This document shows positions 35,928 through 55,126 of a stretch of DNA of 57,585 bases, piece after piece (position 1 is the stretch's first letter; the number at the start of each line of letters is the position of its first letter). Below the pieces are notes generated by a model that had not been told where the DNA came from, ran no database searches, and was given only the letters and a program-made list of their open reading frames with translations. The stretch comes from Escherichia phage vB_EcoS_SP8. The translations under genes were made by a program, and so were the position numbers. The stretch is from the sequence record MT682705.1; one strand, 5' to 3'.

Positions 35928-36404
35928 ATGGATTGGAATCACTATTTTCAATATAGATGCGGAAAACTTTATTGGAAAATCAATAAAGGACGTTCTAAGG
36001 TAGGTGATGAAGCTGGATATATTCATAAATCACATGGATATATTTGTATCACACTTAATCGTAAGGAGTATTATGCCCACCGCATCATTTGGGAAATGCA
36101 CTATGGGCCAATACCAGAAGGAATGGAAATCGATCATATCTGGCATGATCGTCAAGATAACCGCATTGAGAATTTACGGTTAGTGAGTAAATCAGGTAAT
36201 GCTAGAAATCAGTCTAAGTTTAAGAATAATAGTAGTGGCGTGACTGGTGTCAGTTTTGACAAATCAGTTGGTAAATGGATAGTTCAAATTGGAGTAAATG
36301 GAATTAATAAAACTCTTGGATGTTTCGAAGAGTTTAATAAAGCTGTTGAAATTCGTCGTAAAGCAGAGATTAAATACGGTTATCATGTAAATCATGGTAA
36401 GTAA
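35928..36404 (+). CDS. HNH homing endonuclease with AP2-like DNA-binding domain
   Basis: EIDHIWHDRQDNRIENLRLVSKSGNARN (HNH) followed by SGVTGVSF...KWIVQIGVNG...FEEFNKAVEIRRKAEIKYGY (AP2-like); AT-rich. Confidence 0.6.
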   Translation: MDWNHYFQYRCGKLYWKINKGRSKVGDEAGYIHKSHGYICITLNRKEYYAHRIIWEMHYGPIPEGMEIDHIWHDRQDNRIENLRLVSKSGNARNQSKFKNNSSGVTGVSFDKSVGKWIVQIGVNGINKTLGCFEEFNKAVEIRRKAEIKYGYHVNHGK

Positions 36405-39790: not shown

Positions 39791-40537
39791 ATGCAATTTA
39801 CAACTACCGCTCAAGCAGTTTTGGACACTGGTGTCAAGATGCTTGTGTATGGTGAATCCGGTATGGGTAAGACCATGCTTACAGCAACTCTTCCAAGACC
39901 GTTGCTGATTTCTGCGGAGTCTGGGCTTTTATCTTTAACACCGAATAACATTGCTCGTGTATTTGGTGAAAACAGACCAGATATCTGCTACGATATTCCA
40001 ACCATCACGGTTGAAAATATCCAGGATGTAGAGCAGGCTTATGTTTGGGCGACTAACCCTGCAAACAATCCTGTAGGTGAAGATGGTTTACCGCGCTTTC
40101 AGTCTCTTGCGCTGGATTCACTTACTGAGATTGCTGAAAAGTGCCTTAACAATGCGAAGCGTACTGTGAAAGATCCGCGTCAGGCTTATGGGGATCTTAT
40201 TGAGAAGATGCAAACTTTAGTTCGCGCTTTTCGAGATATCCCTGGACTTAACGTGTACATGGCAGCTAAAATGTCCCGTAACAAGGACGAGTTGACAGGT
40301 ATTACGTCTTACGGTCCTTCTATGCCTGGTGCAAAATTAGGTCCAGAATTACCATACTTTTTTGACGAAGTGTTCAAAATTAGTGTTGGTAAAGACCAAA
40401 ATACTCAAGCAGATTTTCGTTATCTGCTGACCAGACCAGATCTGTCAAATGTATGTAAAGATCGTTCTGGTTCGTTAGAACAGATGGAATATCCACATCT
40501 TGGTGCAATCATTAACAAAATCAAAGGGGTACAATAA
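39791..40537 (+). CDS. RecA-like ATPase (Sak4-like recombination protein)
   Basis: Walker A YGESGMGKT near N-terminus; about 248 aa; followed by SSB-like and nuclease genes. Confidence 0.45.
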   Translation: MQFTTTAQAVLDTGVKMLVYGESGMGKTMLTATLPRPLLISAESGLLSLTPNNIARVFGENRPDICYDIPTITVENIQDVEQAYVWATNPANNPVGEDGLPRFQSLALDSLTEIAEKCLNNAKRTVKDPRQAYGDLIEKMQTLVRAFRDIPGLNVYMAAKMSRNKDELTGITSYGPSMPGAKLGPELPYFFDEVFKISVGKDQNTQADFRYLLTRPDLSNVCKDRSGSLEQMEYPHLGAIINKIKGVQ

Positions 40538-41457
40538 TGGCCGGTTTAGGAATGCAATTTAACGCTGGACAACACGCAGAGCGTCAACACAATAGCTTGA
40601 TGCCAGCTGGTTGGTATGTTGTTCAGATTGTAAACTCTGAGATCAAACCGACTAAAACTCCAGGCGGTGCGCGTCTGAATCTTCAGTTTAAGATTATGCA
40701 GGGTGATTTTGCTGGTCGTGTAATGTTTGGCGGTTACAACGTCAAAAACGCAAACCCTGTCGCTGTACAGATTGCAATGGAAGAACTGGCAGAGCTGTCC
40801 CGTGCTGTTAAAGTTCCAGTCTGGAACGATACTGAACAACTGCACGGTATTCCGTTCAACCTGAAAGTGAAAGTTCGTCAGCAACCTGGCTATGAGCCAA
40901 ACAACGAACCTCAGATTTATCAAGCAATTGATAATATGGAAGGTGTTGTATACGCAACTAAAGCGGATATGGCTAACCTGCCTAAATCAACTCCAGCAGC
41001 GGCAGCACAGTCTCCAGCATTTGGTGGCGGTGCGTTCGGTGGTACTCAGCAGCCACAGCAGCAACCGCAGCAGGGTTTCCCGGGCGCATTTGGGCAGCAG
41101 CCGCAGCAACAGCAGCAGCAACCTCAGACTCAGGGGTTCCAGCAGCAACAACAGCAACAACAGCCGCAGCAGCCGGTACAGCAACAGCAGCAACCGCAGC
41201 AGTCTGGAACAGTTGATTTTAACAGTGCGGCACAATCTCAACCGTGGGCTAATGGTGCGCAGAAGCAGACTCAGCAGCAACCTAACTGGGCAACTCAGCA
41301 GGTACAGCCTGGAGCAGAGCAACCGCAAACTCAAGCTCAGAATACTGGTACTGCTAACCATGCAGAACCTGAAGTCCAGGATGATATCGCTAAAGCAGCT
41401 CAGACCAAGACTCCACCGTGGAAACGTTCCACTGAAGGCGATGACGCTGCACAGTAA
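40537..41457 (+). CDS. putative ssDNA-binding protein with Gln/Pro-rich tail
   Basis: position after Sak4-like gene; internal 50-residue Q/P-rich low-complexity tract; function inferred from context only. Confidence 0.3.
   Translation: MAGLGMQFNAGQHAERQHNSLMPAGWYVVQIVNSEIKPTKTPGGARLNLQFKIMQGDFAGRVMFGGYNVKNANPVAVQIAMEELAELSRAVKVPVWNDTEQLHGIPFNLKVKVRQQPGYEPNNEPQIYQAIDNMEGVVYATKADMANLPKSTPAAAAQSPAFGGGAFGGTQQPQQQPQQGFPGAFGQQPQQQQQQPQTQGFQQQQQQQQPQQPVQQQQQPQQSGTVDFNSAAQSQPWANGAQKQTQQQPNWATQQVQPGAEQPQTQAQNTGTANHAEPEVQDDIAKAAQTKTPPWKRSTEGDDAAQ
41044..41202 (+). repeat. CAG/CAA-rich simple sequence tract encoding poly-Gln/Pro
   Basis: cagcagccacagcagcaaccgcagcag... read directly. Confidence 0.6.
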
Positions 41458-50720: not shown

Positions 50721-51209
50721 ATGCACATTATATCTAGAAAACAAGCTATAGAGAAGGGGCTAAAACGTTATTATACTGGTAAACCTTGTAAGAGAGGTCA
50801 TATAGCAGAAAGACATGTCACTGGTGGATGTGTAGTTTGTGCTAACGAAGACCAGATTAAATATTATCAACAAAATCCTGAAAAATACAGGAGAGCTAAC
50901 AGAGATTATTTTCAAAGACCAGATGTTAAAGAGAGAAATAGAATTAGACAATCTCAATTCTATGAAGATAATAAACATTTATGTAGAAGTATATCGTCCC
51001 ATTGTAGAGCACAACGTTTATTAAGAGTTCCAGCATGGTCAGAGAAAGAAGAGATTAAACGATTCTACGAAAATTGCCCAGATGGGTATGAAGTGGATCA
51101 TATAATACCTCTACTTGGCGAGTTGGTAAGTGGACTTCATGTAATGTGTAATTTACAGTATTTACCAAAGCACGAGAACAGATCGAAAGGAAATAAGTTC
51201 GATGTATAG
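50721..51209 (+). CDS. HNH endonuclease inserted in the modification cluster
   Basis: Cys-rich N-terminus (CKRGH...CVVC) and EVDHIIPL...H...N HNH core; AT-rich; overlaps dpdA start. Confidence 0.55.
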   Translation: MHIISRKQAIEKGLKRYYTGKPCKRGHIAERHVTGGCVVCANEDQIKYYQQNPEKYRRANRDYFQRPDVKERNRIRQSQFYEDNKHLCRSISSHCRAQRLLRVPAWSEKEEIKRFYENCPDGYEVDHIIPLLGELVSGLHVMCNLQYLPKHENRSKGNKFDV

Positions 51210-52155
51210 AGAAGATATAGATTATACATTCAATTTATATTTAGCGGCTGTATACACAAACAGTTATAAACCTGGAATGAATCGCTTTGTAAAATTGACA
51301 CCGCATGAACAAAAACTTGTCATGGGAGTTCCTAATATATTGGAGTCCTACCATTACGTTGGAAAGCAATCCTATGTTGATGCCATGCGTGCCGATGGGG
51401 CCAAGATATTCCTCGACTCCGGGGCGTTCTCAGCTTACACTTTGGGAGTTACGTTATCGGTTAAAGAATACTGTGATTACATCCAACGAAACATAGATAT
51501 CATTCGTGTAGAGGATGGTTCGCTTATGGCTTCTGTACTCGATGGTATCGGAGATCCACTTCAAACGTGGCGCAACCAGGAAGAGATGGAAGCCAGGGGT
51601 GTAAGACCTTTACCATGCTTCCACGCCGGTGAACCTTTTGAATACCTGGACCATTATGTGCGAAATTATGAATATATCACTCTCGGTGGTCTTGTTGGAG
51701 CGAGTACACAACAACTTCAAGTATGGCTGGACAGGGTATGGGATAAACACCTTGTAGACGGTAGTGGACGCGCTAAGATTAAAGTCCATGGCTTTGGTAT
51801 TACGTCCCGCCCGCTTATGGAGCGTTACCCGTGGTACTCCTGTGACTCATCCTCCTGGATTCAATCTGCAGCATTTGGCGCTATTGAAACTCCTAAGTGG
51901 GGTCCAATGCAGGTATCTGAAAAGTCCCCGTCACGCCATTATCAAGGGCAGCATATCTGTAACCTTTCAGAAATAGAACAGAATAACGTTCTACGCTACT
52001 TAGAGGAGTCAGGTTTCACATACGAACGACTTTCAACGATATACGAATCACGCGCTGCATACAATTTATGGGCGTATGGTGTGGTCAACGCTATGATTCT
52101 TGCTAACCACAATGGGAAGTTCAACGAACGTCTCCAGGATTTATTTGACGAATAA
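51202..52155 (+). CDS. dpdA: DNA-guanine transglycosylase (DpdA-like, TGT superfamily)
   Basis: FLDSGAF resembles the TGT DSGG motif; about 317 aa; located with folE/queD/queE/queC. Confidence 0.55.
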   Translation: MYREDIDYTFNLYLAAVYTNSYKPGMNRFVKLTPHEQKLVMGVPNILESYHYVGKQSYVDAMRADGAKIFLDSGAFSAYTLGVTLSVKEYCDYIQRNIDIIRVEDGSLMASVLDGIGDPLQTWRNQEEMEARGVRPLPCFHAGEPFEYLDHYVRNYEYITLGGLVGASTQQLQVWLDRVWDKHLVDGSGRAKIKVHGFGITSRPLMERYPWYSCDSSSWIQSAAFGAIETPKWGPMQVSEKSPSRHYQGQHICNLSEIEQNNVLRYLEESGFTYERLSTIYESRAAYNLWAYGVVNAMILANHNGKFNERLQDLFDE

Positions 52156-52163
52156 GGTTACTT

Positions 52164-53156
52164 ATGGATTTGCTTGATGCTTTAAAGTTTGTTCAAGGCT
52201 CCGTCGCGAAGAAAGAACTCCAGGAAGGTTTGACTCACTTCCGTATTGTTGATGGTACTGTGCGCGGGTTCAACGGAACTATTTCATTGTGTAGTCCAGT
52301 GCCGCTGAATATTGACTGTACACCTAAAGCTGAACCAATGTTGAAGGCTATTGCAGCATGTGATGAAGCTGTACAGATGACAATGTTGGCGAACGGTAAG
52401 TTGAGCATTAAGTCTGGTGGCTTTAAGGTTAGTGTAGATACTCTTCAGAAACCAACTGCACACGTAGAGCCAGAAGGAACAATTCACGAAATAGACGGTC
52501 AGCTTTTTCTCAACGGTTTAAGCCGTGTAACGCCGTTTATAAGCGACGATGCTTCCCGCCCGTGGTCTTGCGGCGTGCTGGTAAAACAGGGCAGCATGTA
52601 CGCGACCAACAACGCTAGTATTATACAGTATTGGTTCGGTGCTGTATTCCCTGTAGATTGTGTTGTGCCACGTATGGCCATCAAAGAATTATTGCGTATT
52701 AAAAAGCCACCAGTAAGAATTCAATGTACAGATACCAGTATGACATTTCACTACGAAGACGGTTGCTGGTTGCGTACCCAATTACTGGAATTAAAATGGC
52801 CCAATATTGACAAGATAATTGAGCGTACAGAAAAGGGGTCTAACGTCTATACGCTTGATACTGAGCTTTTTAACTGCTTAGAAAAGATAAAACCGTTCTG
52901 TGAACGTGATGGGCGTATTTACATGGAAAATGGTGTTGTGCGTACCCATTACAACGAGCTGGACGGCGCTAGTGCAATGTTCCGGGAATCTAAGTCGATT
53001 GGTGTGTATAATATAGATCTTATTATGCAGTTGAAAGGACTTGCAACGGATTGGGACGCTTCTCGTTTCAATGAAAAGGACGAAAGGGGTCTTTCAACTC
53101 CTATTATTTTTTATGGTGAAAATCTACGTGGGGTAATTGTAGGATTTCGTCTATGA
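52164..53156 (+). CDS. hypothetical protein, possible sliding clamp (DnaN-like pattern)
   Basis: by-eye collinearity with E. coli beta clamp segments (e.g. CVVPRMAIKELLRI vs VIVPRKGVIELMRM); immediately upstream of the DNA polymerase gene; weak. Confidence 0.3.
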   Translation: MDLLDALKFVQGSVAKKELQEGLTHFRIVDGTVRGFNGTISLCSPVPLNIDCTPKAEPMLKAIAACDEAVQMTMLANGKLSIKSGGFKVSVDTLQKPTAHVEPEGTIHEIDGQLFLNGLSRVTPFISDDASRPWSCGVLVKQGSMYATNNASIIQYWFGAVFPVDCVVPRMAIKELLRIKKPPVRIQCTDTSMTFHYEDGCWLRTQLLELKWPNIDKIIERTEKGSNVYTLDTELFNCLEKIKPFCERDGRIYMENGVVRTHYNELDGASAMFRESKSIGVYNIDLIMQLKGLATDWDASRFNEKDERGLSTPIIFYGENLRGVIVGFRL

Positions 53157-55126
53157 GAAAAGACGCGATTGGGTTTTTCTGGACGGATTTACCTCCCGCT
53201 AAGAAAGAGAAGAAACAGAAAGTAAAACGTCAACCAGTTGAAAGGGTATGGGAACGCCCAGACTACCTTCCAGGTCTTGATGCAGCAATGCGTTTTGCAG
53301 CTAATGATCCGCGTATGACAGACGGTGAATTAGTGGAAATGTATTTTGCACAAGAAACGTTCGTATACGATATCGAATGTTATAAGAATTATTTTCTTGT
53401 GGCGTTTAAAGGGGTTAAGTTCGGTAAGGTTTATTATCTAGAAATGACTGCCGGTCAGACACTTGACACGGAAAAATATGAATGGATAATGAAGAACTTT
53501 CGTACCGTTGGTTTCAACTCAAGAAACTACGATAATACGATGACATTCCTTGCCATTGCTGGTTTAACTGTTGACAAGCTAAAAGAAGCAAGTGACAGGA
53601 TGATCCAGGAAGAGTGGGCTCCGTGGGACATTCTTAACAGTTTTGGGGTAAAACAGTTTTGGATTGACCACATTGACGTTCAAGAAGTAGCTCCGGGCTT
53701 CGGTTCGTTGAAGCTGTATGGTGGCCGTATGCACATGCAGAAGCTCCAGGACTTACCATTCCCACCACATTGGGCGTTATCCGTAGAACAGATTGCTATT
53801 GTGCGCTTCTACTGTATTAACGACCTTGATACAACAATGGCTCTGTTTAACTCACTGGAAGAGCAAATCCATCTACGTGAGATTATGAGTGAAGAGTATA
53901 AAGTAGATCTTCGCTCTAAATCCGATGCACAGATTGCAGAAGCTGTAATCCGCCATGAAATGAAGGAAATGCTGGGCTTCGTACCACAGAAGGGTATGGT
54001 GGAAGTTGGCAGAACCTTTAGGTACAATCCTCCAGTGTGGTTAGGTTTCCAAACGCCACTAATGAAGTCCGTATTTCAGGTTGTGCTTGATAGTTACTTC
54101 CGAGTCGCAGAGGATGGTAAAATTAAGCAACCATCGACAATGAACTCTCTGAAGTTTACAATCAATCAGACAACTTACAACATGGGTATCGGTGGTCTGC
54201 ACTCATGCGAAGAGTTAATGGAGATTGTACCATCTGAAGATGAAGAGATGTGGGATGCTGACGTAACGTCATACTACCCGATCTGTATCATTAACCAGCG
54301 ACTATATCCTGAGCACCTGGGCCCGCGCTTTATAGATATTTTCGTTAAGATCGTAGAACGACGTATTGCAGCTAAGATGGCTCATGACGATAAGACCTCA
54401 CAGACTCTTAAGATCGTTATTAACGGTTCTTATGGTAAGTTCGGTTCACCGTTCTCTATTCTGTATGCACCGCATCTTATTATTCAGACCACATTGACAG
54501 GTCAGTTGGCTCTGCTTATGCTCATTGAAACACTAGAGCTTAACGGCATTCAGGTCGTTAGTGCTAACACGGATGGTATCGTTATTAAGCCTTGCAAAGC
54601 TAAGAAGCAATTAATGACGGATATCATTAAGTGGTGGGAAGAAACAACTGGCTTTGAAATGGAGTTGAACCAATACCTGCGTCTTAACTCTGCAAACGTC
54701 AACAACTACGTCGCAATCAAAGCAGATGGTAAAGCCAAGCGTAAAGGTTGGTTCGCAGAGACAGGTCTAGCTAAGAACGCGGAAGGTGAGATTATTATGG
54801 ATGCTGTGGTCAACCTTCTCCGTGACGGTACACCAATTGCTAAAACTATCACAGAGTGTCAGGACATTCGTAAGTTTGTTTGTATCAAGACAGCTAACGG
54901 TGGCGCTGCATGGAATAGTGAGCCATTGGGTAAAGTCGTTCGCTGGTATTATACAAAAGAGGAAGTACCTGAGATACTAATAGTCAAGAGTGGTGGTCGT
55001 GTCGGTAAGACAGCAGGGGGTAAACCTATGATGGAACTCACTGACCAGTTACCGCCGGATCTCAACCACGAAGTGTACATAGCTAAAGCGGAAAAATTGC
55101 TGGAAAAACTCGCATACGCCGCTTAA
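53153..55126 (+). CDS. DNA polymerase, family B-like
   Basis: Exo I-like YDIECY; motif A DVTSYYP; motif B KIVINGSYGKFG; motif C SANTDGIVI. Confidence 0.7.
   Translation: MRKDAIGFFWTDLPPAKKEKKQKVKRQPVERVWERPDYLPGLDAAMRFAANDPRMTDGELVEMYFAQETFVYDIECYKNYFLVAFKGVKFGKVYYLEMTAGQTLDTEKYEWIMKNFRTVGFNSRNYDNTMTFLAIAGLTVDKLKEASDRMIQEEWAPWDILNSFGVKQFWIDHIDVQEVAPGFGSLKLYGGRMHMQKLQDLPFPPHWALSVEQIAIVRFYCINDLDTTMALFNSLEEQIHLREIMSEEYKVDLRSKSDAQIAEAVIRHEMKEMLGFVPQKGMVEVGRTFRYNPPVWLGFQTPLMKSVFQVVLDSYFRVAEDGKIKQPSTMNSLKFTINQTTYNMGIGGLHSCEELMEIVPSEDEEMWDADVTSYYPICIINQRLYPEHLGPRFIDIFVKIVERRIAAKMAHDDKTSQTLKIVINGSYGKFGSPFSILYAPHLIIQTTLTGQLALLMLIETLELNGIQVVSANTDGIVIKPCKAKKQLMTDIIKWWEETTGFEMELNQYLRLNSANVNNYVAIKADGKAKRKGWFAETGLAKNAEGEIIMDAVVNLLRDGTPIAKTITECQDIRKFVCIKTANGGAAWNSEPLGKVVRWYYTKEEVPEILIVKSGGRVGKTAGGKPMMELTDQLPPDLNHEVYIAKAEKLLEKLAYAA

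What the first reader, a model, noticed from the sequence alone, without database searches (positions are those of the whole stretch)
52164..53156. Possible phage-encoded sliding clamp between dpdA and the DNA polymerase
The 330-aa product shows a by-eye residue pattern collinear with parts of the bacterial beta clamp and sits immediately upstream of, and overlapping, the family-B polymerase gene. If it is a clamp-like or pol-accessory protein it may couple replication with DpdA-dependent base exchange. The similarity is weak and unverified.
Basis: inference. Interest (0 to 1): 0.5.

Follow-up and report, generated by a model that had tools for sequence, protein, structure and literature searches.

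The report
Phage sliding clamp with docking partners
The gene encodes a ring-type DNA sliding clamp, as public records already annotate, but both flanking genes (the polymerase and the DNA base-swapping enzyme DpdA) carry conserved clamp-docking-like end peptides, suggesting DNA modification is tethered to replication.

Summary
The ORF is real (52164-53156, +, 330 aa; 4-nt ATGA overlap with the polymerase; 8 nt after dpdA). The clamp reading is correct. A homolog profile hits only bacterial beta clamps in the PDB (E 3e-6), and a confident AlphaFold model (pLDDT 91.9) matches 50/50 DnaN structures (E ~2e-20, TM 0.72-0.78, three domains). This is not new: the window is a 9g-like Nonagvirus, and RefSeq and PHROGs already call the gene "DNA polymerase processivity factor". 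The phage encodes no clamp loader, and the clamp is acidic like ring-forming clamps.

What I could not find in the literature searched:
- All 79 downstream polymerases start with a conserved x-G-[FLM]-[FW]-W peptide on a basic linker. It occurs on unrelated family-B and family-A polymerases. In dpdA-less relatives a C-terminal ...LSFF takes its place.
- DpdA ends in ...Q-[EDG]-L-F in 78/78 loci, in 119/120 database representatives, and in distant Streptococcus, Bacillus and cyanophage DpdAs that also sit next to a clamp. A clamp-less mycobacteriophage lacks it.

Best reading: the clamp tethers both the polymerase and DpdA. Binding is inferred, not shown. Published data show the phage clamp is not essential for DpdA activity.

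The parts
52164..53156 (+). Gene for a DnaN-type (three-domain) sliding clamp, 330 aa. Conserved R132, T148 ('YATNN' strand), W212-P213, K217-I218 and the C-terminal ...VGFRL correspond to peptide-pocket positions of E. coli beta.
   Evidence: ORF. phrog_947 E 4.6e-82. Profile vs PDB finds only beta clamps, E 3e-6. AF2 pLDDT 91.9. Foldseek top 50 all DnaN. TIGR00663 E 5.8e-6 but 25.5 bits against a 137.65-bit cutoff. Pocket mapping from hhalign and from residues listed in PMC11139829. pI 6.03.
53153..55126 (+). Divergent family-B DNA polymerase, 657 aa; presumed main client of the clamp.
   Evidence: phrog_1252 E 3e-228. PDB 1s5j PolB1 E 1.2e-8 and Pol II 0.012. NCBIfam archaeal PolB and Pol II models, E 2e-11 to 6e-6.
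53162..53182 (+). Polymerase residues 4-10, D-A-I-G-F-F-W: candidate N-terminal clamp-binding peptide.
   Evidence: Conserved in nearly all of 120 homologs at 44-99% identity and in 79/79 polymerases downstream of clamp genes, of which 72 are family-B-like and 7 are family A. Binding not tested.
53153..53338 (+). Portable N-terminal module (~62 aa): the G-F-F-W peptide, a Pro/Lys-rich linker (res 13-30, 7 K/R and 3 P) and a second motif W-E-R-P-D-Y-L-P-G-L.
   Evidence: This is the only significant similarity between the VpKK5 family-A polymerase and this family-B polymerase (res 3-64 vs 2-62, 45% identity, E 1e-5; the rest E >= 0.47). Pfam DNA_pol_A scores 230 and 205 bits for the A-type enzymes.
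51202..52155 (+). dpdA: DNA guanine transglycosylase that inserts 7-deazaguanine; proposed second client of the clamp.
   Evidence: phrog_887 E 8e-99. 94.6% nucleotide identity to the phage 9g region. 9g DpdA function is published in PMC6884629.
52090..52152 (+). DpdA C-terminal tail (res 297-317), predicted coil, ending N-E-R-L-Q-D-L-F-D-E. Motif L311-F315 lies at nt 52132-52146: candidate clamp-binding peptide.
   Evidence: 78/78 neighbouring-locus DpdAs end in ...Q-[E/Q/G]-L-F. Across 57 distinct tails, L is 57/57 and F 55/57, while the linker has ~3 bits of entropy. 119/120 database representatives end in L[F/Y]. AF2 gives coil with pLDDT 29-36. Binding not tested.
53153..53156 (+). ATGA start/stop overlap between the clamp and polymerase genes (translational coupling).
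   Evidence: Coordinates.

Best explanation
ORF 52164-53156 encodes a divergent DnaN-type sliding clamp: three clamp domains per chain, so presumably a head-to-tail homodimeric ring around DNA. SHOWN: the fold, the remote homology to DnaN, the acidic ring-type charge, and the absence of any phage clamp-loader gene. INFERRED, step 1: the host DnaX clamp loader, or an unknown route, puts the ring on primed phage DNA. INFERRED, step 2: the adjacent family-B polymerase docks onto the clamp's hydrophobic pocket between domains II and III through its N-terminal D-A-I-G-F-F-W peptide, held on a flexible Pro/Lys-rich linker, and this gives processive synthesis. INFERRED, step 3: DpdA, encoded immediately upstream, carries a C-terminal ...L-Q-D-L-F-D-E tail of the same kind and uses the second pocket of the ring, or exchanges with the polymerase in tool-belt fashion. 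That would keep DpdA on freshly replicated duplex, so guanines are swapped for 7-deazaguanine right behind the fork, before host nucleases see unmodified DNA. My sub-confidences: clamp identity 0.97; processivity factor of the adjacent polymerase through the N-terminal module 0.75; DpdA as a clamp client 0.5; host loader 0.5.
For: Clamp identity: phrog_947 E 4.6e-82; profile vs PDB finds only beta clamps, E 3e-6; AF2 pLDDT 91.9; Foldseek top 50 all DnaN, E ~2e-20, TM 0.72-0.78; hhalign vs E. coli DnaN E 2.7e-5; TIGR00663 E 5.8e-6; nearest viral models are annotated phage beta clamps.
Pocket: invariant R132, T148 and P213, plus K217 and I218, align with E. coli R152, T172, P242, R246 and V247. 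The C-terminus LRGVIVGFRL resembles AAYVVMPMRL.
Ring type: pI 6.03, family 4.89-6.16, E. coli beta 5.25. This is the criterion of PMC3201878.
No loader: SE1 annotation, PHROG and Pfam scans, tblastn with real loader subunits and a Walker-A scan.
Polymerase peptide: 79/79 loci. A ~60-aa module is shared by unrelated family-A and family-B polymerases. In dpdA-less Septimatrevirus-type phages the polymerase lacks it and ends in ...AALSFF...AQLFF or ...TLGLF, the position used by E. coli Pol II.
DpdA peptide: 78/78 loci; an invariant L-F after a high-entropy linker; 119/120 representatives. Distant DpdAs next to clamps also end in QxxLF: BcepGomr, Me-ZS1, VpKK5, RHEph06, Streptococcus MS1, Bacillus Flasso, cyanophage Pan1. 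Clamp-less Hedgerow lacks the tail on both DpdA and Pol I.
Motif rules: the motifs fit Q-phi-x-[LM]-[FL], LF alone suffices, and terminal tails or a disordered N-terminus are typical locations (PMC11139829).
Parallel: bacterial DpdA needs DpdB, a ParB-like dimer proposed to encircle DNA (PMC10164549).
Against: No binding, ring formation or loading was tested; everything beyond fold and homology is comparative inference. 9g DpdA plus Gat-QueC expressed in E. coli without the phage clamp modified plasmid DNA at up to 18 +/- 10% of Gs (PMC6884629), so the phage clamp is not required for catalysis. Rosebush (tail-less DpdA, no clamp) reaches ~28% of Gs, as high as CAjan at ~32%, while Dp-1 (tail plus adjacent DnaN) reaches only 1.7%. 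So the tail does not predict modification level. Cellulophaga phi3ST:2 has a DnaN nearby but a tail-less DpdA. In this clade the DpdA motif ([VIL]-Q-[ED]-L-F) has its Gln one position off the canonical Q-L-x-L-F, and pocket residue H175 is not conserved. The DpdA model is poor over its C-terminal third, so 'disordered tail' is weakly supported. Curated DnaN sequence thresholds are not met.
Confidence: 0.65

Rival explanations
1. The clamp serves only the polymerase. The DpdA tail binds something else (the host beta clamp, another phage protein, or DpdA itself), and the dpdA-clamp adjacency merely reflects a 7-deazaguanine cassette inserted at a fixed spot in a conserved replication operon.
For: Septimatrevirus-type phages have helicase-clamp-pol with no dpdA, so the clamp-pol pair is the older unit. 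9g DpdA is highly active in E. coli without the phage clamp, where only host beta is available. In several lineages the tail has canonical Q-x-x-L-F spacing that host beta could bind. Modification level does not track the tail.
Against: dpdA-clamp adjacency survives a swap of the polymerase family (Me-ZS1, VpKK5, 7 metagenomic loci). It recurs in unrelated Streptococcus, Bacillus and cyanobacterial phages with very different genome layouts. DpdA variants ending IGLF, RGLF or QGLF match the polymerase N-terminal peptide of the same phage group. The tail is absent where no phage clamp is found.
Confidence: 0.27
2. The protein is a non-ring processivity factor of the herpesvirus UL42/UL44 type. 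It would have the clamp fold but bind DNA directly as a monomer or C-shaped dimer, which would explain the missing clamp loader.
For: No loader gene in the genome. PMC3201878 proposed this solution for loader-less viral clamp homologs. The protein is shorter (310-330 aa) than cellular DnaN.
Against: That paper's criterion is an elevated positive charge. This clamp and its family are acidic (pI 6.03; range 4.89-6.16) like E. coli beta at 5.25. All three domains superpose on ring-forming DnaN.
Confidence: 0.06
3. The protein is a host-takeover decoy: a clamp mimic that titrates host clamp-binding proteins or the host clamp loader rather than acting in phage replication.
For: Only that phages are known to target the host clamp (for example Twort Gp168, mentioned in PMC11139829) and that this clamp lacks its own loader.
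Against: The gene is translationally coupled to the phage polymerase. The clamp-pol gene pair is conserved across 320 phage records. Terminal motifs co-vary with clamp presence on the phage's own polymerases.
Confidence: 0.02

Closest known systems
Bacterial beta sliding clamp (DnaN; E. coli beta, PDB 7azc, 3q4j, 8xla and others)
   Same: Three-domain fold over the full length (TM 0.72-0.78). Detectable remote sequence homology. Acidic charge. Several pocket positions and the C-terminal ...[MF]-R-L are conserved.
   Different: Only 14-17% identical and ~36 residues shorter. It fails the Pfam and TIGR00663 thresholds. H175 is not conserved. It is phage-encoded, with no cognate loader gene, and is paired with a family-B or family-A polymerase instead of Pol III alpha.
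E. coli Pol II (family B) and Hda as beta-clamp clients
   Same: Pol II is a family-B polymerase that binds beta through a terminal QLGLF peptide. Hda binds through a motif in a disordered N-terminus (PMC11139829). Both placements occur in this phage group: N-terminal here, C-terminal ...LSFF in Septimatrevirus types.
   Different: Here the peptide is x-G-[FLM]-[FW]-W with no Gln. It sits on a portable ~60-aa module that is also found on family-A polymerases. Binding is not demonstrated.
Phage clamp genes already annotated as 'DNA polymerase processivity factor', 'replicative clamp' or 'DNA polymerase III beta subunit' (9g, JenK1, SE1, CAjan, NP1, Kakheti25 and others; phrog_947)
   Same: This is the same gene family. 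The window protein is 100% identical to those of JenP2 and SE1Kor.
   Different: Those labels are homology annotations. I found no paper in the searchable library describing its partners, its loader, or a link to DpdA.
T4 gp45 clamp with the gp43 polymerase C-terminal tail and the gp44/62 loader
   Same: A phage-encoded clamp that tethers the phage's own family-B polymerase through a terminal peptide and also serves other clients (T4 late transcription; abstract of PMC2988020 listed).
   Different: gp45 is a two-domain, trimeric, PCNA-like clamp with its own loader. It is structurally a poor match here (TM 0.36).
Clamp-tethered DNA-modifying or repair enzymes in eukaryotes (DNMT1-PCNA, UNG2-PCNA; my own knowledge, not checked here) and bacterial DpdA-DpdB
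   Same: The logic is the same: an enzyme that must act on all newly made DNA is coupled to a DNA-encircling protein. Bacterial DpdA requires DpdB, a ParB-like dimer with a DNA-sized tunnel (PMC10164549).
   Different: The partner here would be a beta-type replication clamp, the link a C-terminal LF peptide, and the reaction a base exchange. None of this is shown experimentally.

Membership tests
Bacterial DnaN / beta sliding clamp | Three tandem clamp domains in one ~330-380-aa chain, superposable on solved DnaN structures | tested here: met
   AF2 pLDDT 91.9, pTM 0.86, three helix/sheet repeats. Foldseek top 50 all DnaN, E ~2e-20, TM 0.72-0.78, ~370 aligned columns.
Bacterial DnaN / beta sliding clamp | Score above curated sequence-model thresholds (Pfam DNA_pol3_beta domains 1-3; TIGR00663 cutoff 137.65 bits) | tested here: not met
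   No Pfam hit for the window protein. 7 of 36 relatives hit PF02767 weakly, best E 0.0026. TIGR00663 scores 25.5 bits, E 5.8e-6. It is a remote homolog, not an equivalog.
Bacterial DnaN / beta sliding clamp | Head-to-tail homodimer forming a closed ring around duplex DNA | not testable with these tools
   Only monomer prediction is available. A ring is inferred from the three-domain architecture and acidic pI.
Bacterial DnaN / beta sliding clamp | Hydrophobic peptide-binding pocket between domains II and III (subsite I: R152, L155, T172, H175, L177, P242, R246, V247, V360, M362; PMC11139829) | tested here: inconclusive
   Aligned equivalents R132, T148, I153, P213, K217 and I218 are conserved or similar. 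The L155 and H175 equivalents are not. The C-terminal VGFRL vs MPMRL match is an end-anchored comparison only.
Bacterial DnaN / beta sliding clamp | Loaded by an AAA+ clamp loader (DnaX complex) | not testable with these tools
   No loader is encoded in the window. Use of the host loader is inference.
PHROG 947 (phage 'DNA polymerase processivity factor') | Significant full-length match to the family profile | tested here: met
   E 4.6e-82, residues 2-330 on profile positions 11-365 of 368.
PCNA / T4 gp45-type clamps (two-domain chains, trimeric ring) | Two clamp domains per chain; best structural matches to PCNA or gp45 | tested here: not met
   Three domains. No PCNA or gp45 among the top 50 PDB hits. 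An Aeromonas phage gp45-type clamp ranks 48th in BFVD with TM 0.36.
Non-ring viral processivity factors (UL42/UL44 type) | Elevated positive charge on the DNA-binding face, high pI (criterion of PMC3201878) | tested here: not met
   pI 6.03; family 4.89-6.16; E. coli beta 5.25. Whole-protein pI only; surface potential was not computed.
Beta-clamp-binding motif (CBM) - DpdA C-terminal tail | Q-phi-x-[L/M]-[F/L] (LF is the anchor) on a flexible terminal tail, often with acidic flanks or a free carboxylate | tested here: inconclusive
   L-F is invariant or nearly so (57/57 and 55/57) and acidic residues lie adjacent. The motif is terminal, follows a high-entropy linker, and is predicted coil. Gln is shifted by one position in this clade but canonical in BcepGomr, VpKK5, Me-ZS1, MS1, Flasso and Pan1. 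Binding not testable here.
Beta-clamp-binding motif (CBM) - polymerase N-terminal peptide | Hydrophobic phi-x-[L/M/F]-[F/L] core on a disordered terminus, co-occurring with the clamp | tested here: inconclusive
   [IVL]-G-[FLM]-[FW] in 79/79 loci and on both polymerase families. It is replaced by a C-terminal L-x-F-F where absent. It has no Gln, like the delta subunit's AMSLF. Binding not testable here.

The most novel reading that the evidence does not exclude
The phage beta-type clamp is a hub that tethers the DNA base-exchange enzyme DpdA, through a C-terminal Q-x-L-F peptide, as well as the polymerase. 7-deazaguanine insertion would then be coupled to the replication fork, with the clamp playing for phage DpdA the role that the DNA-encircling ParB-like ATPase DpdB plays for bacterial DpdA. 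This would be, to my knowledge, the first clamp-tethered DNA hypermodification enzyme in a virus of bacteria. It would be conserved from Proteobacteria phages to Streptococcus, Bacillus and cyanobacterial phages.
Probability: 0.45. Interest if true: 0.75.

Novelty: new variant of a known kind. Interest (0 to 1): 0.5.

Why it matters
The clamp assignment on its own is ordinary: public records and PHROGs already carry it, and this work only puts it on firm structural ground. The wiring around the clamp is what matters.

First, phage DpdA enzymes replace up to about 30% of genomic guanines without the DpdB ATPase that bacterial DpdA needs. How they reach so much DNA so quickly is unexplained in the papers I read. 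A clamp-docking tail gives a concrete mechanism that can be tested with a peptide-binding assay and a five-residue deletion in CAjan or 9g, phages that can already be edited.

Second, the same ~60-residue N-terminal module on unrelated family-A and family-B polymerases, and its replacement by a C-terminal LF peptide in sister phages, is a clear example of modular evolution of replisome contacts.

Third, thousands of these clamps (3,463 clusters at 50% identity) lack a loader gene, which raises the question of how they get onto DNA.

Tried and rejected
1. Pfam on the single protein found nothing. Single-sequence PDB search was marginal. Profiles and structure were needed.
2. Other clamp clients in the window. 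A terminal-motif scan flagged the primase (MLELF...), the Cas4-like exonuclease (MELF at an internal Met), the endolysin (MELF...) and a tail-module protein ending QDSLFF. The Cas4 and primase motifs are not conserved in relatives, and I judged the endolysin and tail-module hits implausible clamp clients without testing their conservation. I treated all four as chance matches.
3. Clamp loader candidates. Sak4 is an AAA_24 annealing protein. VpKK5 orf18 is a generic AAA protein with no window homolog. MS1 gamma/tau and delta-prime subunits find nothing in the window.
4. The idea that the tail predicts modification efficiency is contradicted by published numbers: Rosebush 28%, Dp-1 1.7%, and 18% for heterologous 9g DpdA.
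5. The rival that the terminal LF is a structural part of DpdA. The AF2 model shows coil at pLDDT ~30, but the whole C-terminal third is poorly modelled, so this is only weak evidence against it. No solved DpdA relative was detectable by sequence.
6. ParB-like partner for tail-less DpdAs. phi3ST:2 gp51 hits ParB_N below threshold (23.5 vs 26.3 bits), and Hedgerow gp1 has no hit. I kept this only as a lead.
7. The search for related loci with the primase returned only near-identical Nonagvirus loci. The Pseudomonas phage PIP record is full of frameshifts and was ignored.
8. A clamp-peptide fusion prediction was not attempted.
9. The AbiA/Queuovirinae paper holds nothing on this gene.
Full report
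OBSERVATION. The ORF exists exactly as described: 52164..53156, + strand, ATG start, 330 aa. Its TGA stop overlaps the ATG of the next gene (ATGA at 53153-53156), which encodes a 657-aa polymerase. It starts 8 nt after the TAA of the upstream gene, with an AAGG overlapping that stop. The window is a 9g-like Nonagvirus genome: 94-96% nucleotide identity to SE1, JenP1, JenK1 and 9g.

IS IT A CLAMP? Pfam finds nothing for the single sequence, and a single-sequence PDB search gives only a marginal beta-clamp hit (8dt6, E 0.056). With more sensitive methods the signal is unambiguous.
- PHROGs places the protein in phrog_947, 'DNA polymerase processivity factor', at E 4.6e-82.
- A 36-sequence profile (A1) finds six beta clamps as the six best PDB sequences, E 3e-6 to 6.5e-3, collinear over most of the length.
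- hhalign against the real E. coli DnaN sequence gives E 2.7e-5, and TIGR00663 (dnaN) gives E 5.8e-6.
- An AlphaFold model built on A1 is confident (mean pLDDT 91.9, pTM 0.86) and shows three helix/sheet repeats.
- Foldseek against the PDB returns bacterial DnaN for all top 50 hits (E ~2e-20, TM 0.72-0.78, ~370 aligned columns, 14-17% identity).
- In the viral structure library the nearest neighbours are phage proteins already named beta subunit or beta clamp. A T4-type gp45 clamp matches poorly (TM 0.36).

So the protein is a three-domain, DnaN-type clamp, not a PCNA/gp45 type. It is a remote relative: 25.5 bits against a 137.65-bit TIGR00663 cutoff, and only 7 of 36 relatives touch Pfam's central-domain model. 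The family is large. There are 320 phage records and 3,463 clusters at 50% identity in the exhaustive search, nearly all 310-330 aa.

ALREADY KNOWN? Yes, at the level of annotation. RefSeq and GenBank records of this genus label the gene 'DNA polymerase processivity factor', 'DNA polymerase beta subunit' or 'putative DNA polymerase III subunit beta'. Related genera use 'replicative clamp'. I found no paper in the searchable library that studies it.

NEIGHBOURS. The downstream enzyme is a divergent family-B polymerase: PDB 1s5j Sulfolobus PolB1 at E 1.2e-8, then E. coli Pol II and Pol alpha, plus NCBIfam PolB and Pol II models. The upstream gene is the DpdA transglycosylase (phrog_887). Upstream of dpdA lie queE, gat-queC, queD and folE, with an HNH ORF between folE and dpdA.

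NO LOADER. No clamp-loader gene is present by any of these tests: the SE1 RefSeq annotation, PHROG and Pfam scans of the replication module, tblastn with genuine phage loader subunits, and a Walker-A scan that finds only Sak4, the terminase and a spurious tail-fibre match. Kazlauskas and Venclovas proposed that loader-less viral clamp homologs with raised positive charge bind DNA directly without forming rings (PMC3201878). This clamp is acidic (pI 6.03; family 4.89-6.16; E. coli beta 5.25). By that criterion it is a ring that needs loading, most simply by the host DnaX complex. That last step is inference.

THE POLYMERASE DOCKING PEPTIDE.
- Nearly all of 120 polymerase homologs (44-99% identical) begin M-R-x-D-[AS]-[IVL]-G-[FLM]-[FW]-W-x-D. 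A Pro/Lys-rich stretch follows, then W-E-R-P-D-Y-L-P-G-L.
- In 80 viral loci carrying a clamp homolog, 79 have a polymerase downstream. All 79 carry the peptide: 77 match the strict pattern and 2 read V-E-G-L-F-W.
- Seven of those polymerases are best matched by family-A enzymes. Pfam confirms DNA_pol_A at 230 and 205 bits for VpKK5 and Me-ZS1.
- The only significant similarity between the VpKK5 family-A enzyme and this window's family-B enzyme is the first ~60 residues (45% identity, E 1e-5). The catalytic bodies do not align.
- In dpdA-less Septimatrevirus-type phages (order helicase-clamp-pol) the polymerase has no such N-terminus. Its extreme C-terminus instead reads ...AALSFF...AALPLF...GELAFF...APLFF...AQLFF...GKLFF...TLGLF or ...KQLTFF.

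According to the beta-clamp review, clamp-binding motifs are Q-phi-x-[L/M]-[F/L], the LF pair alone can bind, and the delta-subunit motif AMSLF lacks the Gln. The motifs sit on C-terminal tails (Pol II, Pol IV, Pol III alpha) or on a disordered N-terminus (Hda) (PMC11139829). A hydrophobic terminal peptide that is always present next to the clamp, is portable between polymerase folds, and can move from one terminus to the other is what a clamp-docking module should look like.

THE DpdA TAIL.
- This window's DpdA ends ...N-E-R-L-Q-D-L-F-D-E.
- In the 80 loci, dpdA lies immediately upstream of the clamp in 78, often abutting it. All 78 DpdAs end in ...[VI]-Q-[E/Q/G]-L-F. Variants include IGLF, RGLF and QGLF, which look just like the polymerase peptide.
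- Over 57 distinct tails, Leu is 57/57, Phe 55/57 (Tyr 2), Gln at -3 is 43/57 and Glu at -2 is 41/57. Linker positions -5 to -15 have about 3 bits of entropy. This is the signature of a short linear motif on a variable tether.
- In an independent set of 120 cluster representatives, 119 end in L[F/Y] and one in QELL.
- More distant DpdAs that sit beside clamps end the same way: BcepGomr QQGLFV, Me-ZS1 QPELF, VpKK5 QPGLF, RHEph06 EQRLF, Streptococcus phage MS1 QNRLF (DnaN is the next gene, and the phage has its own loader), Bacillus phage Flasso QGKLF (DnaN two genes on), and cyanophage Pan1 QQYLFGGL (a clamp of this family in the same cluster; its Pol I starts MVGLINGLF).
- Controls. Mycobacteriophage Hedgerow (Rosebush type) has no clamp by annotation or by two HMMs, and no LF peptide on DpdA or Pol I. 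A Bacteroides phage DpdA-like protein has no tail, and no clamp of this family was found within 6 kb. The exception is Cellulophaga phi3ST:2, which has a DnaN 2.5 kb away but a short, tail-less DpdA.
- Other terminal ELF-like matches in the window (primase, Cas4-like exonuclease, endolysin, a tail-module protein) were set aside as chance. The primase and Cas4 motifs are not conserved in relatives. The endolysin and tail-module matches were not tested for conservation.

POCKET. In the hhalign and HMMER alignments, the clamp's invariant R132, T148 (in the 'YATNN' strand) and P213, together with K217 and I218, fall on E. coli R152, T172, P242, R246 and V247, all subsite-I residues. The C-terminus LRGVIVGFRL resembles AAYVVMPMRL. 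H175 and L155 are not conserved. The pocket is therefore plausibly present but diverged.

RIVAL TEST. If the terminal LF merely packed into DpdA's own fold, a model should show it ordered. The AlphaFold model (A2) puts residues 297-317 in coil at pLDDT 29-36. However, the whole C-terminal third is poorly modelled (mean pLDDT 67.8), so this is weak support only. No solved relative is detectable by sequence.

WHAT THE LITERATURE SAYS. The three main phage-DpdA papers never mention a clamp or processivity factor. They describe insertion as post-replicative, and only two incidental papers contain both terms. Bacterial DpdA needs DpdB, a ParB-like ATPase dimer whose closed form encircles a DNA-sized tunnel (PMC10164549). 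This is a suggestive parallel.

Published data also limit the claim. 9g DpdA with Gat-QueC in E. coli, without the phage clamp, modified plasmid DNA at up to 18 +/- 10% of Gs. Rosebush reaches ~28% and CAjan ~32% of Gs, but Dp-1 only 1.7%. The phage clamp is thus not required for catalysis, and the tail does not predict the final modification level. If the coupling is real, its benefit is more likely in timing, targeting to phage DNA, or competition with host nucleases. The tail might also use the host clamp.

VERDICT. Observation confirmed. The clamp interpretation is supported and already in public annotation. Confidence: clamp 0.97; polymerase docking module 0.75; DpdA as clamp client about 0.5.

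Noticed in passing
L002:8863-10005 (Kakheti25) and L126-L137: Septimatrevirus-type clamps carry an acidic C-terminal extension ending ...YEDDIPF. Its tip matches the E. coli SSB C-terminal peptide (DDDIPF, from my own knowledge). This could let a loader-less phage clamp recruit host SSB-binding factors such as the chi subunit of the clamp loader. The window clamp lacks the extension.
   Followed up: no
P0382 (representative search; no window coordinates): A 497-aa protein fuses a DUF6884 domain (PF21818, E 2e-11; YaaA-like) to the N-terminus of a clamp of this family. It is either a covalently attached client or a gene-call artefact.
   Followed up: partly
window 50721-51209 (+); also 35928-36404 (+): A 162-aa ORF lies between folE and dpdA, with only a marginal, non-significant Pfam HNH_4 hit (E 0.17). 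Its homologs occupy three different intergenic positions in other loci (folE|dpdA, dpdA|clamp, clamp|pol). SE1 has an extra 561-bp ORF between clamp and pol. This looks like a mobile homing-endonuclease gene hopping within the operon. The ORF at 35928-36404 is a clear HNH_3 gene.
   Followed up: partly
window 53249-53278 (polymerase residues 33-42): A second conserved motif, W-E-R-P-D-Y-L-P-G-L, follows the basic linker. Family-A and family-B polymerases of these phages share it. Its partner is unknown.
   Followed up: no
window 51202-52155 compared with 52164-55126; loci L013-L083: Across the same set of phages, DpdA is much better conserved (52-72% identity) than the adjacent clamp and polymerase (about 38-54%). 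This indicates unusually strong constraint on DpdA.
   Followed up: no
L089:6660-7124 (phi3ST:2 gp51); Rosebush-type mycobacteriophages: Tail-less DpdAs sit beside ParB-like genes: a ParB_N hit at E 5.7e-5 below threshold, 'ParB' annotations in some records, and no hit for Hedgerow gp1. Because bacterial DpdA needs the ParB-like DpdB, DpdA may have two alternative DNA-encircling partners.
   Followed up: partly
window 40537-41457 (+): The DUF669 SSB-like protein ends ...TKTPPWKRSTEGDDAAQ. Its relatives in BcepGomr, Me-ZS1 and VpKK5 also carry a conserved PPW motif near the C-terminus. This may be a protein-interaction tail.
   Followed up: no
window 8868-9296 (-): A 142-aa product in the tail module ends ...AAQDSLFF, a canonical-looking Q-x-S-L-F motif. 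I presumed it a chance match because of its structural-gene context.
   Followed up: no
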